Assembly: GCF_032062105.1 (NCBI RefSeq)
Contig: NW_026938763.1
Location: 1 to 64,000, forward strand
DNA length: 64,000 nt
Direction of reading: 5' to 3'
Origin: Saccostrea cucullata
Lineage: Eukaryota
This document shows, piece by piece, positions 1-40,800 of this stretch. Each line of letters opens with the position of its first letter. Position 1 is the stretch's first letter. Made by a program: the position numbers.

Positions 1-1784
1 TTTCAACCTCAATAATAAAAAATAATCTATGTGTAAAACGTAATTCTAAATTCATTAGATTGCAATTTATACATAATAGAAAAGAAAAAAAAAAGAAAAG
101 AAAAATAAGACCATATATATTCATGGAGTGCTGCCAATGTGGGCAGTATAAGGCAATTTTTCAAAAAAGTGAAGTATCAATCAAACAAATAATGCTCGTT
201 ATATGCATATGTTTCTATTTTATTGTAAATACAATATTTATCTAGTGGACTTAAGAACAAATCATTTAATTTCTATAAAATTCTTGATTCTGATTGGATA
301 AAAAATTCTTTTGATAACTGCATCAATAAAATCTAGAGTTCGCTTGCACTAAGCAGCCGGAACTACTTTGGCTGTCTTTACATCTATATTCCCGCTTCCA
401 GATTACTTTTTGAAGGAATAATTGAATACTTTTTATTTAATAAATATTTTCCTGAATTTCGGAACCTGTCCGTTACGTGTCTGACTTATTTTCTACTTTC
501 GTTTCATTTTGAATTATCCCCCTTTGCTAAACAAATCAAATCGTCTGCATGACGACTATACAGTTATGGAAAAGATCCGAAAGAAGGGAAGAAATCGTTT
601 AATCGGCATATTTTTCTTAAATGTTTGACTTTGAGATATCTGGTATGAAACAATAGAACTCTGAAAAAATGTTTTATTATGCTACAAAAGCGGGGAAAAC
701 CGTAAATCTGTTAAATAATTGGAAACTAATGATCGAGAAAACGAAACTGCATGAATGTGGACGGACTTCTTTTAATCATGAACAGTCGGCAGCAGACTCT
801 TTCAGGTTTTACAGCATTGACAGGTTGTGATACTTATTAATATATTCGGTTTGAAATTCAGATGAAAAGATGCGCAAATGAAATCCAAAATTTCTGTGAT
901 CGAGAACTGTTAGGATATTTGAATAGCTTCCCTTTACGAACTAAGATAACTTACCGGGAAAAATATACCCAGAGGGATAACACAACAGGTAAGTTTTTGT
1001 GTTAAAGAACTGTAAATTATTTCAGAGAATGTTGGTAAGCACACGACAATATTTGAGAACGTTTTTTCGTTAGCATGGTTAGAGCCATTTTGAATTTTCA
1101 GCAAGGTTAACGTTATGGTGATGTATTCGTGCACACTGTTTTTGATGCGTAAATTTAAAAGAAAAGTGAAGGAAACTTTATTTTATTAATTTAAAATCAT
1201 AATTAAATGATAAGAAATGAATGTAATATTTTTTTCTTTGATCGATGTATCAAAGAAAAAATTTGGACGGAAAACTTTTTCATCAATTTCCGATAGGGTC
1301 ACTCCAGCTTCAAACACGATGACGTCATCATCCGTTGTATTTTCATTGTCATAATATCCTGTGAATTTTTCATATTTATTTTTTATATCAGAATATCATG
1401 TGATATTCAATATGAATATTATTAAAATAAATCTTGTTTTTGATCGTAGAGGAGGTCGTAGAACATATAACAAACGTTAACATATCTGAATAGGTAAATT
1501 AAGTAAATGTATACCAACCTCTATTTACCCAGTGCGGAGGGAAATGGAGAGTAGCATTAGAATATGTTCCGCCACATGCTTTTAAAACCAGCATTTCTGC
1601 CCCCTGTCAAAAGAAGAAGTTATAAATGGATGTATCTTTTAGAAGAACAAACTGTGTGGGACATGCTTTTTTATACACAGTGTGAGTTTTGAATTGGTTT
1701 TAATAAACTTACAAATAAATTAGAGATTAAAATTACAAATTCCAAAATAAAGTGTTACTTGATACCTTCTTTCCTTAAGGTTAA

Positions 1785-1822
<38 letters not shown>

Positions 1823-37800: not shown

Positions 37801-40800
37801 CAATAGTAATTTAATATTTATTTAGTTATATTTTTGTCAAAAAGCTAAATTAATAAAACCCAGAAATTCGTTAGCGGATAAATTAATTATGTAAGAATAT
37901 CAACGAACGAACAATTTCAAGTAAACATTCTGCAAATTCTATGGTCGAAACAATGACCTTGTTTGCCAGTGGAATTTGACTTTAGAAAACATTGACTAAT
38001 GAATATCGAACAAATTTCTTAGTCAGATTTTTCACTCTGTGCTGTCAAGAAATTTTCCACAGTCTTGAGAAGTAGAGGACTACAGGTGTAAAATAATTTT
38101 TTACCATCTATTTTATAGCCTTTCTTTTGGAATTCATAAATAGAAATACTTTAGATGTAAATTTTTGAGTTATACATATACTTAAAATTAGGTGCTTAGA
38201 CGATGAAGTATTTCTATTAATATTGATGAAATCTCTGCATTTTGTAAGAAAAAAATACAATATCACACGAGAATAGATCCGTTCTATGTGAGAATAACCC
38301 ATTGTCTGATAAGAAAAATTAAAATTATAAATGAACTTTTTGGAATTAACATGATGAAGCGGAGGTTGGATGAAAATTATAGCATTAACACACTTTTATC
38401 AGACTATATATTTTACTATATATTTCAAATATAATTTGTTATTTCAAATAGATAATGCATTTATTTATTAAAAAGTTTATCATTGACACTTTTTTGCGTT
38501 TTTTTTTAAAATATCAACTGCTCGACATATGAAAGGCTTGGTGGTGTAAAGAGAAAAAACAAATGATTGAATCGATGAAAATATTGTAATAAAGCCTCAG
38601 TTATCTAGACAGTACTAATCTATTTGTCTGATCTTCCGAAAGAAATCTATAGAGGTAAAATTAACGACTTTTGTACACTTTTCAAAGGAAAGTAATCAAA
38701 ATCCCTTCATTCGAATTCTTTTTATTGTCCAGTTTATTTCACGAATATTAATTTCCTTCAAACATTCAATATCTTACCAAACCATTCTAGAAACTTTTTA
38801 TATGCCCTTTATAACTTGTGTAAAAAACACTTAATTAAAATAAGATGAACTCTTATTTGTTTTTTGTTTTTGTTTTTTATTTAATTTCAAATTTATGAAT
38901 TGTATGCGTCTTAAACATTTTACAATTTAGTTTTTAGAGATCTGCCTTCACTTCACAATCAATTAATCTTTAGAGTGGAATGGGTTAGATAATTCTTTAT
39001 TGTTCTAATTTTTCTTAAATCTCTAGTAATGAAAAACAAAGGACCTGCAAAATTGTCTCGATATCAACGTTAGTAGTTTAATCTGTAAGAAAAATTCATC
39101 AAAGATTTTTGAAAGCGAATTCATGAGAAACATATTGAAAGTTTTCACAAAAGCAAGAAATACAAAATCATTTTTTGTAAACTGGCCTAAAAATCTAAAG
39201 TATACATTTATTATTAAAAAATATATTTCAGACTATTTCCTTAGGCTTTAAGAATAGATTAAAGGCAATATTTTCATTATTTGCTTTGCACAGAACAAAA
39301 CCCAACAACATGCAATATCCATTAACTCCTAACACTAGAACTAAATCCAATCATAAAAACGTTCGATGTAATAAGACTGTGTTCTAAAAATGTGTTAGTT
39401 GATATGAAAATATTTTTTTTTCTGCCTACAACTCCATTTTTACAAATTTTAAAGTGAAAATTTTAATAATATAGCAATTGCAAATAAAAAAAAAAAACAC
39501 ATCAAATAAAATTTAAAGTCTGCAATTTCAATTATGAGTTTAATCGTACGTTTCGAAGTTTAAATGCATATTTTTTTATGATTGTGTTATAAATGTCATA
39601 AAAGTTTTAATTAAAAAAATGAAAATCAACATACCCTTATCCATTATGAAGAAGCAATTTGAAAGAAGAAAGCGAAGTATGACATGCATATCTGTCCTCT
39701 TTAAAAACATAAGAAGCTGTTATTGTTTGTAATACATTAAAATATACTTGACACAACTGACCTGTTTTATGACAAATTGAAATAAAACAATAAATAATTT
39801 GATTGCATCTTATTGATTTTGATTATTTTTGTGTTCATCTTGAAATTATCAACACTAATCCTCTGAATTATTTATCCTCATATTTCACTTGACACCGTGT
39901 ATGAAATATTTGTAAGTCTTTATTAGTGCATTATATAATTAGTGCATAGAAGTCGAAGATGGGAGTCTTAAAACACTTGGTAGAAAGTTGTTAATTGACA
40001 GTTATTATAGCCAAATATAGTAGTTAACTTCATGTCTTCTTTCTTTATTCTTTAAGCCAAAGGCTCATCAGATTTTATACAGCACACAAACATGATAAAG
40101 AGTATAGAATAAATATTATATACAAAAGTACACAAAGAATATAAATATCAACAGTAGTTACAAATTAGACTTTCGTAGAGCTGTAGCTTTATATAAAAAT
40201 TTTCCTAAATTAGACAACTCATTTACATTTCGACTACTCATCAAACTTACAACTTTAAATAAACTTTGTTTGACATAATAATACTTCTTAATGTACATAC
40301 TTCTCAGATTTTCATAAAATGAACATTTTAATATGAAATGAAATTCAACTTCAATATCAATATACTGTAAATGAGCGTAGTGTGCAAATTCTTTGATATC
40401 GAAGTGTATTTTTATATCTACCACTTTCATTTTTTAATTGGTGGTTTGATAATCTAATCTTGGTGAGCATTCTCTTTTATCTATCATCAATAGGTTTTGT
40501 TAAATATCTTTGTAATACAAAATTATTTACAACGTACTGGTACAATTGTTTTTTTGAAGATGCAGTTACAAATGAAAAAATATTTTGTCTATAAACATCA
40601 GTCATCCTTTGCTCAATTATTTTATATGTACAATTATCAACAATGTTGGAATCCCATAAATAGTTCAAACCTAGTCTCCCCAACTCTTCTTCAATACACA
40701 AAATCAAATTCTCGTTACGTAAAACCATATCTTCATAATAGGCCCTAAGAATACAATTATCAGTCCCTCTTAACTTGAGCAAGTATTTAAAAAAAATTAA

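What the first reader, a model, noticed from the sequence alone, without database searches (positions are those of the whole stretch)
1286..39689. Tandem three-gene family of uncharacterised secreted multi-domain glycoproteins in birth-and-death evolution
Seen: three same-strand paralogs with matching exon sizes and phases (237, 198, 85, ~177 nt), each with its own signal-peptide exon ending G|GTATGT. Only the middle copy is intact. Protein divergence is strong, so the duplications are old while the two inactivations look more recent. I cannot assign the central domains to a named family. Inference: a lineage-specific extracellular protein family (mucus, shell matrix, adhesion or immune recognition). 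This is the best candidate for an undescribed system in the window.
Basis: partly seen in the sequence, partly recalled or inferred. Interest (0 to 1): 0.75.

Follow-up and report, generated by a model that had tools for sequence, protein, structure and literature searches.

The report
Three tandem secreted lectin-like genes
Three neighbouring copies of an unnamed gene for a secreted, probably sugar-coated protein that ends in a likely sugar-binding domain; only the middle copy is still intact, and its oyster relatives are uncharacterised too.

Summary
Three paralogous, intron-bearing gene copies lie head to tail on the minus strand: A 39689-30921, B 26080-10727, C 9485-1286. Exon sizes match: 237 (236 in A), 198, 85, 176/179 nt. 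Each copy has a short ATG/hydrophobic first exon ending G|GTATGT in phase 1. Only B is open through all 9 exons (2481 nt, 826 codons, all GT-AG). A and C carry several disabling lesions.

The protein belongs to a family with no Pfam model. Its only named relatives are Ostrea edulis 'uncharacterized protein LOC125659286' isoforms. Each B exon, searched separately, maps in order onto that protein.

Structure prediction of relatives gives a disordered S/T-rich N-terminus, a string of beta-sandwich domains, and a C-terminal 8-Cys jelly-roll. The jelly-roll resembles galactose-binding-domain-like modules such as CBM32/discoidin.

Best reading: a secreted lectin-like adhesion or recognition protein family evolving by birth and death. 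dS is near saturation and dN/dS is 0.2-0.5. Function, expression and taxonomic range are untested. The joined spliced protein was not built or searched.

The parts
10727..26080 (-). Copy B, the intact gene: 9 exons. E1 26080-26020, E2 (S/T-rich) 18778-18188, Ea 17335-17082, Eb 16111-15875, Ec 14522-14325, Ed 13102-13018, Ee 12858-12680, Ef 11707-11054, Eh 10948-10727 (includes the stop).
   Evidence: Every exon has an open frame, the phases are consistent, and all 8 introns are GT..AG. Each exon maps in order onto Ostrea P0042.
26020..26080 (-). Copy B exon 1: ATG plus 20 codons of signal-peptide-like sequence, donor G|GTATGT, phase 1.
   Evidence: Maximum Kyte-Doolittle hydropathy (19-residue window) is 1.65.
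18188..18778 (-). Copy B exon 2: mucin-like region, 196 codons, 40% S+T, no Cys; enters and leaves in phase 1.
   Evidence: The equivalent region of P0042 (residues 1-181) is predicted disordered.
11054..11707 (-). Copy B exon Ef, 218 codons: one beta-sandwich domain plus the first two thirds of the C-terminal jelly-roll, including the D-G-N-x-x-T-C motif.
   Evidence: 41 hits at E<=1e-3, best 4.5e-36.
10727..10948 (-). Copy B last exon Eh: the final third of the C-terminal domain, 6 Cys, then the stop codon.
30921..39689 (-). Copy A, an unprocessed pseudogene: E1 39689-39635, Ea 37739-37480, Eb 35715-35480, Ec 33950-33753, Ed 33260-33176, Ee 32676-32501, Ef-equivalent 32252-~31409, Eh 31151-30921. 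It has 1 frameshift, 1 premature stop, 1 disrupted stretch that removes the core motif, and no S/T-rich exon.
1286..9485 (-). Copy C, an unprocessed and truncated pseudogene: E1 9485-9428, S/T-rich remnant ~4234-3639 split over two frames, Ea 3367-3118 (frameshifted, with a stop), Eb 2968-2732, Ec 2248-2051, Ed 1603-1519, and Ee from 1358 with similarity lost at 1286-1289. Ef and Eh are not found in the window.

Best explanation
The region holds three head-to-tail paralogs of one unnamed gene family. The middle copy (B) is an intact 9-exon gene. The flanking copies (A, C) are unprocessed pseudogenes that keep the ancestral intron positions.

Inferred protein encoded by B, in order: (1) a signal peptide; (2) a disordered, probably O-glycosylated S/T-rich stretch; (3) a rod of beta-sandwich domains encoded by Ea-Ee and the first part of Ef; (4) a C-terminal jelly-roll of about 150 residues with 8 conserved Cys, of the galactose-binding-domain-like fold class.

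Proposed mechanism (inferred, not shown): the protein is secreted, the beta-sandwich rod acts as a spacer, and the terminal jelly-roll binds a carbohydrate or glycoprotein ligand. That would make it a lectin-like adhesion or recognition molecule of an extracellular layer. The family turns over by tandem duplication, long divergence under purifying selection, and occasional gene death.
For: SHOWN:
- Three paralog sets with shared splice sites and phases.
- B is open across all 9 exons with GT-AG introns.
- Each B exon, searched on its own, aligns in the same order to Ostrea edulis P0042: Ea 201-239, Eb 262-307, Ec 342-407, Ed 412-439, Ee 441-491, Ef 519-712, Eh 722-792.
- The Ostrea isoform X2 is 80 aa shorter and lacks just the Eb block.
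- Family size: 41 hits at E<=1e-3, 18 at <=1e-10, among 1.84 billion representatives.
- AF2 model of P0042: residues 1-181 disordered, 187-792 all-beta with pLDDT mostly 75-90. Its PDB matches are beta-sandwich arrays: PrgB, antigen I/II and integrin alpha legs.
- AF2 model of the domain-only relative P0034: pLDDT 85.7, pTM 0.78. 36 PDB matches at E<=1e-3, led by CBM32, CBM22, IFT25, DOC/APC10, the EphB2 ligand-binding domain and a fucosidase F5/8-type module; best TM on target 0.61.
- Weak Atlas leads point to the same class.
- The 8 Cys and the D...D-G-x-x-x-C...P...PP...G...C core are conserved in 10 of 12 up to 32 of 32 covering rows. Copy B has them.
- Copy B has 16 N-x-S/T sequons and no hydrophobic segment after E1.
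- Evolution: pS 0.52-0.67, dN/dS 0.23 (A-B), 0.46 (B-C), 0.23 (A-C).

INFERRED: secretion, glycosylation, ligand binding and biological role.
Against: - No expression or protein evidence for copy B could be obtained.
- The structural evidence comes from relatives (P0042, about 31% identical to B in Ef; P0034), not from B itself, because the exons were not joined.
- The jelly-roll matches are moderate (E ~1e-4, 10-16% identity, rmsd 4-6 A). This fold class also includes non-lectin protein-interaction modules such as DOC, IFT25 and Eph.
- No Pfam F5/8 type C, CBM or lectin model matches any member, even at E<=1. No PDB sequence matches.
- The link between E1 of B and the rest of the gene rests on position, phase and likeness to the other two first exons, across a 7.2-kb intron.
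- The single-base frameshift in A's Eb could be an assembly error, although A's other lesions would remain.
Confidence: 0.6

Rival explanations
1. The family is a passive structural component (mucus, shell matrix or other extracellular scaffold). The terminal jelly-roll would serve for self-assembly or protein-protein contact, not for binding a glycan.
For: The S/T-rich exon is mucin-like. The galactose-binding-domain-like fold class also includes protein-binding modules among the hits: DOC/APC10, IFT25 and the EphB2 ligand-binding domain. No lectin model matches.
Against: The S/T-rich region is dispensable in the family: it is absent from the long relatives P0028, P0033 and P0040 and from copy A. 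The Tandem Repeats Finder table lists no array in 18188-18778. No VWD, CTCK or other gel-forming mucin domain was found. The most conserved part of the family is the jelly-roll, as expected of a binding module.
Confidence: 0.2
2. The family acts in fast-evolving recognition (gamete recognition, self/non-self or pathogen recognition). Gene gain, loss and divergence would then be driven by conflict rather than drift.
For: The paralogs are only 46-51% identical in protein despite lying side by side, and 2 of the 3 copies are dead. The domain build is adhesin-like.
Against: dN/dS is 0.23-0.46 over the exons that could be compared, giving no sign of positive selection at this resolution, and dS is near saturation. 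No tissue data. This reading is a more specific version of the best explanation, not a contradiction of it.
Confidence: 0.15
3. Copies A and/or C are not pseudogenes. The lesions would be assembly errors or avoided by alternative splicing, for example by skipping the phase-0/phase-0 exon Eb as Ostrea isoform X2 does.
For: Eb is symmetrical (237 nt, phase 0 to 0), and the Ostrea isoform X2 lacks just that block. The A frameshift is a single base.
Against: A also has a premature stop and lacks the invariant core motif of the C-terminal domain. C has a frameshift and stop in Ea, loses similarity inside Ee, and shows no Ef or Eh in the remaining 1285 bases of the window. Several independent lesions in each copy are unlikely to all be errors.
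Confidence: 0.08
4. The three units are repeated exon sets of one very large gene, not three separate genes.
For: They share strand and order. The gap between B's stop and C's first exon is only about 1.2 kb.
Against: A and B each end in a stop codon at the position where the full-length relatives end. Each unit starts with its own ATG and hydrophobic exon. Relatives are 626-957 aa, about the size of one unit.
Confidence: 0.03

Closest known systems
Ostrea edulis 'uncharacterized protein LOC125659286' isoforms X1/X2 (P0042, P0004), with unnamed relatives P0008, P0028, P0033, P0040
   Same: Same order of conserved blocks from Ea to Eh, same C-terminal 8-Cys domain and same C-terminal end. An S/T-rich N-terminal region is present in P0042, P0004 and P0008. 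Identity to single copy-B exons is 31-48%.
   Different: Low identity, so these are not orthologs of near-identical sequence. The long forms (910-957 aa) carry about 250 extra residues before the C-terminal domain and have no S/T-rich region. None of them has a known function.
Galactose-binding-domain-like jelly-rolls: F5/8 type C (discoidin) and CBM32, CBM22
   Same: The predicted fold of the C-terminal domain (CBM32 4a42: E 7e-5, TM 0.61 on target). The position at the end of a multidomain extracellular protein. From memory, not from a call: an N-terminal D-G-N-x-x-T motif is common in bacterial F5/8 type C modules, and the family has D-G-[ND]-x-x-[ST]-C.
   Different: No Pfam match, even at E<=1. 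10-16% identity. Eight conserved Cys in their own pattern. Ligand binding is untested.
Beta-sandwich stalks of adhesins and receptors (integrin alpha thigh/calf domains, PrgB and antigen I/II Ig-like domains)
   Same: A string of beta-sandwich domains in an extracellular protein (E down to 1.6e-11).
   Different: TM 0.1-0.2 and rmsd about 20 A over the chain, with 6-11% identity. No FG-GAP propeller, no Integrin_alpha2 or other Pfam match, and no transmembrane segment. The likeness is one of fold class only.
Secreted mucins
   Same: An N-terminal exon with 40% S+T, predicted disordered in the relative. A neighbour hit, P0043, is labelled 'mucin-2-like' and matches through its S/T-rich part.
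   Different: No VWD, C8, TIL or CTCK domain. The Tandem Repeats Finder table lists no array in E2. The S/T region is optional within the family.

Membership tests
Unnamed family typified by Ostrea edulis LOC125659286 | Conserved blocks in the same order from the first beta-sandwich to the C-terminus | tested here: met
   7 of 7 folded-part exons of copy B (Ea-Eh), searched separately, hit P0042 in order. E1 and E2 gave no hit at E<=0.01.
Unnamed family typified by Ostrea edulis LOC125659286 | C-terminal domain with 8 conserved Cys and the D-G-[ND]-x-x-[ST]-C...P...PP core | tested here: met
   Copy B carries the motif, while copy A and the sequence downstream of copy C do not. The Ef C-terminal part plus Eh hold 8 Cys. 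Column shares are 10 of 12 up to 32 of 32.
Unnamed family typified by Ostrea edulis LOC125659286 | N-terminal signal peptide | tested here: inconclusive
   All three copies and the relatives have a hydrophobic first exon or N-terminus. No signal-peptide predictor was available.
F5/8 type C (discoidin, PF00754) / CBM32 | Match to the family's sequence model above its cutoff | tested here: not met
   No hit for copy-B exons or for any of the family proteins scanned, even at E<=1.
F5/8 type C (discoidin, PF00754) / CBM32 | Beta jelly-roll of the galactose-binding-domain-like class | tested here: met
   Model of P0034 (pLDDT 85.7) against PDB: CBM32 4a42 at E 7e-5 and TM 0.61 on target; 36 hits at E<=1e-3. 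This was tested on a relative, not on copy B itself.
F5/8 type C (discoidin, PF00754) / CBM32 | Carbohydrate or lipid ligand bound by the apical loops | not testable with these tools
   No binding data are available, and the loop residues cannot be compared without sequence homology.
Integrin alpha chain | FG-GAP beta-propeller head, Integrin_alpha2 leg domains, transmembrane segment | tested here: not met
   No Pfam match. No hydrophobic segment after exon 1. Only a generic beta-sandwich likeness, TM 0.11-0.15.
Gel-forming mucins | VWD/C8/TIL and CTCK domains flanking long PTS tandem repeats | tested here: not met
   None of these domains found. The TRF table lists no array in 18188-18778.
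Unprocessed (duplicated) pseudogenes: copies A and C | Introns kept at the parental positions, plus disabling lesions | tested here: met
   Shared acceptor and donor sites and phases. A has 1 frameshift, 1 stop and 1 disrupted stretch. C has a frameshift with stop in Ea, an S/T remnant in two frames, and truncation.

The most novel reading that the evidence does not exclude
The C-terminal 8-Cys jelly-roll is a new subfamily of the galactose-binding-domain-like fold, not recognisable by sequence. It would define a mollusc family of secreted recognition proteins not yet described, with paralogs that diversify and die in tandem arrays the way immune or gamete-recognition genes do. Copy B would be the only working member at this locus.
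Probability: 0.25. Interest if true: 0.6.

Novelty: new variant of a known kind. Interest (0 to 1): 0.4.

Why it matters
Bivalve genomes hold many expanded, unnamed families of secreted proteins, and few can be tied to a fold or a plausible mechanism. This one now has four things to work from:
- a defined exon model;
- a fold-level assignment (beta-sandwich rod plus lectin-like jelly-roll);
- a conserved Cys/Asp/Pro signature that could seed a family model;
- a local record of gene birth and death.

If expression and ligand data follow, it would add a new lectin-like module to the set of invertebrate extracellular recognition proteins. If not, it remains an ordinary lineage-restricted secreted family.

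Tried and rejected
- Pfam on single exons of B and on family proteins, down to E<=1: nothing above cutoff. Marginal Big_8, REJ, PA14 and D8C_UMOD hits were taken as noise.
- Sequence searches of solved structures with two family profiles and with P0034: only chance-level MotB hits at E>=0.028, or nothing.
- The search for homologous proteins with exon Ef, 'longer' lengths: none. With P0004 and with alignment A3: only 3 Ostrea proteins each time, because S/T-rich words dominated the candidate list.
- The ten multi-stretch hits (P0013, P0017-P0021, P0031, P0037, P0038, P0041) were left out of all alignments. The 4 of them that were scanned (P0013, P0017, P0018, P0019) are big repeat proteins with cadherin, He_PIG, Ig or PHD domains. 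I did not count them as family members.
- The global alignment A2 placed the short exon rows wrongly, so those rows were dropped from A4 and A5.
With P0042 it gave only scores of 0.77-0.78, which count as leads.
- The cluster look-up for source names was unavailable.
- Literature: 'LOC125659286' gave 0 papers. Three keyword searches gave listings in which no title or abstract start described this family. No paper was opened. Supplements are closed and might hold proteome lists that include relatives.
- Rejected readings: a transposon or virus-derived ORF set, because these are spliced cellular genes with oyster homologs; processed pseudogenes, because the introns are retained; and the long ORFs at 19.3-20.9 kb, which are artefacts of a minisatellite.
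Full report
WHAT IS THERE

The window is AT-rich (GC 0.26-0.37) and contains no N. All coding signal for this finding is on the minus strand.

A blastp of every stop-to-stop frame against every other shows eight groups of paralogous exon-bearing frames. A tblastn of each copy-B exon peptide against the window shows the same. They are arranged as three head-to-tail units:

- Copy A: 39689-30921
- Copy B: 26080-10727
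- Copy C: 9485-1286

Nothing similar occurs in the remaining 24 kb of the window.

Splice sites are conserved between the copies. The exon bounds derived from them are given and, for the S/T-rich exon.

COPY B

| Exon | Coordinates | Length (nt) |
|---|---|---|
| E1 | 26080-26020 | 61 |
| E2 | 18778-18188 | 591 |
| Ea | 17335-17082 | 254 |
| Eb | 16111-15875 | 237 |
| Ec | 14522-14325 | 198 |
| Ed | 13102-13018 | 85 |
| Ee | 12858-12680 | 179 |
| Ef | 11707-11054 | 654 |
| Eh | 10948-10727 | 222 (with stop) |

Every exon is open in the frame that its neighbours' phases require. All 8 introns are GT..AG. The lengths add up to 2481 nt, or 826 codons plus the stop.

That total is a sum of lengths, and every search was made exon by exon. 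The joined protein of copy B was therefore never searched, scanned or folded. This leaves its full-length behaviour in those tools untested.

THE FIRST EXONS

GGTATGT by itself is not enriched: 7 matches against 5.7 expected. However, its only three minus-strand matches (39635, 26020, 9428) each close a reading frame that starts with ATG and has 18-20 largely hydrophobic codons ending in phase 1. Each lies upstream of one copy, and the flanks align. The next exon (E2 in B, Ea in A) starts in the matching phase.

For B, the link crosses a 7.2-kb intron that contains a 1.5-kb minisatellite. It rests on position, phase and likeness to the other two first exons.

COPIES A AND C

Both keep the parental intron positions, so they are unprocessed duplicates.

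- Copy A has one frameshift (Eb is 236 nt, not 237) and one premature stop in the Ef-equivalent. The last third of that exon is disrupted, and the family's invariant core motif is gone. No S/T-rich exon is detectable. That absence may not be a defect, since long relatives lack this region too.
- Copy C has a frameshifted Ea with a stop, and an S/T-rich remnant spread over two frames (27-30% S+T). Its Ee loses similarity after about 23 codons, at 1286-1289. There is no Ef or Eh in the 1285 bases left before the window edge.

AGE OF THE COPIES

I computed Nei-Gojobori counts per exon and summed them as numbers:

| Pair | Codons | aa identity | pS | pN | dN/dS |
|---|---|---|---|---|---|
| A-B | 308 | 48% | 0.67 | 0.30 | 0.23 |
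| B-C | 173 | 46% | 0.52 | 0.31 | 0.46 |
| A-C | 94 | 51% | 0.67 | 0.29 | 0.23 |

Synonymous sites are near saturation, and most divergence accumulated under purifying selection. Each dead copy shows only a few lesions. This supports old duplications with later inactivation.

One exception is exon Ee. It is far more alike at the DNA level than the other exons: A-C 90% over 81 nt and A-B 79% over 172 nt. That suggests a local gene-conversion tract or constraint at the nucleotide level.

WHAT THE PROTEIN IS

No Pfam model matches any copy-B exon above its cutoff. Exon Ef (218 aa), searched against 1.84 billion representative proteins, found 41 hits at E<=1e-3, 18 at <=1e-10, and a best hit of 4.5e-36 at 45% identity.

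- Ten of the 41 are multi-stretch hits to very large proteins. The four that I scanned are repeat proteins with cadherin, He_PIG, Ig or PHD domains. I excluded all ten.
- Most of the remainder are 83-326 aa fragments. They look like single-exon ORF calls of the same exon.
- A few are full length: P0004 (713 aa), P0008 (626 aa), P0028 (915 aa), P0033 (957 aa) and P0040 (910 aa).

The only names obtained are NCBI's 'uncharacterized protein LOC125659286' isoforms X1 and X2, plus a 'mucin-2-like' neighbour hit that matches through its S/T-rich part. All are from Ostrea edulis.

Each copy-B exon from Ea to Eh aligns to P0042 in the same order. Isoform X2 lacks exactly the Eb block. This supports the splice model independently and shows that the exon structure is shared with an oyster.

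Pfam finds nothing in the 12 distinct family proteins scanned, even at E<=1, apart from sub-threshold noise. Solved structures hold no sequence relative.

FOLD

AlphaFold2 on P0042 with the family alignment gave mean pLDDT 67.5. Residues 1-181, the signal peptide and S/T-rich part, are disordered. Residues 187-792 are all-beta with pLDDT mostly 75-90.

Foldseek of the whole chain returns arrays of beta-sandwich domains: PrgB Ig-like domains at 1.6e-11, antigen I/II C-terminal domains, and integrin alpha legs. TM is only 0.1-0.2 and rmsd is about 20 A. This shows the fold class and says nothing about family membership.

P0034 (170 aa) is essentially the C-terminal domain on its own. It folds with pLDDT 85.7 and pTM 0.78. 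It matches galactose-binding-domain-like jelly-rolls: CBM32 (4a42, E 7e-5, TM 0.61 on target), CBM22, IFT25, DOC/APC10, the EphB2 ligand-binding domain, the F5/8-type module of a fucosidase, and the discoidin-like receptor-binding domains of some binary toxins. There are 36 matches at E<=1e-3, at 10-16% identity.

The Atlas leads are weak (0.77-0.78), but 2 of the 3 top clusters carry F5/8 type C domains.

Eight Cys and a D...D-G-x-x-x-C...P...PP...G...C signature are conserved in 10 of 12 up to 32 of 32 covering rows. Copy B has all of them.

Copy B also has 16 N-x-S/T sequons, an E2 with 40% S+T, and no hydrophobic stretch beyond E1.

HOW IT MOST LIKELY WORKS

Shown: the gene structure, the paralogy, the lesions, the family membership, and the fold class of relatives.

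Inferred: the protein is secreted and glycosylated. The beta-sandwich rod holds out a terminal jelly-roll that binds a carbohydrate or glycoprotein. That makes it a lectin-like adhesion or recognition molecule.

The rivals are:
- a passive matrix or mucus scaffold;
- a fast-evolving gamete or immune recognition role, which is a more specific form of the same idea;
- A or C being functional through exon skipping or because of assembly error;
- one giant gene.

I rate the last two unlikely, for the reasons given under each rival.

COMPARISON AND NOVELTY

Copy B is a member of the unnamed Ostrea LOC125659286-like family.

- It works like, but is not a sequence member of, the F5/8 type C / CBM32 family. 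The model match was tested and not met; the fold was tested and met, on a relative.
- It is not an integrin alpha chain.
- It is not a gel-forming mucin.

I found no description of this family in print: 'LOC125659286' gave 0 papers, and three keyword searches gave listings only, with no paper opened.

I rate it a new variant of a known kind. It is an unnamed secreted family built from common fold classes, with a sequence-distinct lectin-like end domain.

LIMITS

- The source species was not identified.
- No expression or protein data could be reached.
- The structures are those of relatives, not of copy B.

Noticed in passing
window 36074-36192 (+): Full-length match to the U5 spliceosomal snRNA (RF00020): 60.6 bits against a gathering score of 40, model positions 1-117. 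It lies on the opposite strand, inside the Ea-Eb intron of pseudogene copy A.
   Followed up: partly
window 41923-42150 and 42688-42993 (+): Two exon-bearing frames of a POPDC (Popeye-domain) gene: PF04831 at E 6.5e-23, and 7.5e-4 for the other frame. It is transcribed away from copy A. Its downstream exons were not mapped.
   Followed up: partly
window 19358-20855: A minisatellite with period 21/42 and about 72 copies, inside intron 1 of copy B. It produces long spurious ORFs in several frames on both strands.
   Followed up: partly
window 12697-12868 / 32515-32686 / 1286-1366: Exon Ee is much more alike at the DNA level than the other exons: A-C 90% over 81 nt and A-B 79% over 172 nt, against 70% or less elsewhere. 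This may be a gene-conversion tract between the paralogs.
   Followed up: partly
window 15048-15457, 45198-45496, 53717-54087; 17298-17848, 44815-45800, 59881-60280; 29870-30116, 47130-47409, 58590-58786, 62920-63297: At least three interspersed repeat families are shared between the introns or spacers of the gene cluster and the distal part of the window. They are probably transposon remnants and were not classified.
   Followed up: no
window 7499-7931 (and 16143-16322): A tandem repeat with a 146-156 nt unit and about 3 copies in intron 1 of copy C. Related sequence lies just upstream of exon Eb of copy B.
   Followed up: no
window 10182-10385 (+): A 67-codon ORF with a hydrophobic stretch, on the plus strand between the end of copy B and the first exon of copy C. 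It has no Pfam match and is probably a chance ORF.
   Followed up: partly
proteins P0001-P0003, P0005, P0007, P0009-P0012 and similar: Many family hits are 184-326 aa and cover just the Ef-equivalent exon. Their ends read on past the point where copy B has its donor site. They look like ORF calls on unannotated eukaryotic contigs, which suggests this exon is conserved as a unit.
   Followed up: partly
window 1787-1845: An (AG)n microsatellite of about 30 copies in the Ec-Ed intron of copy C.
   Followed up: no
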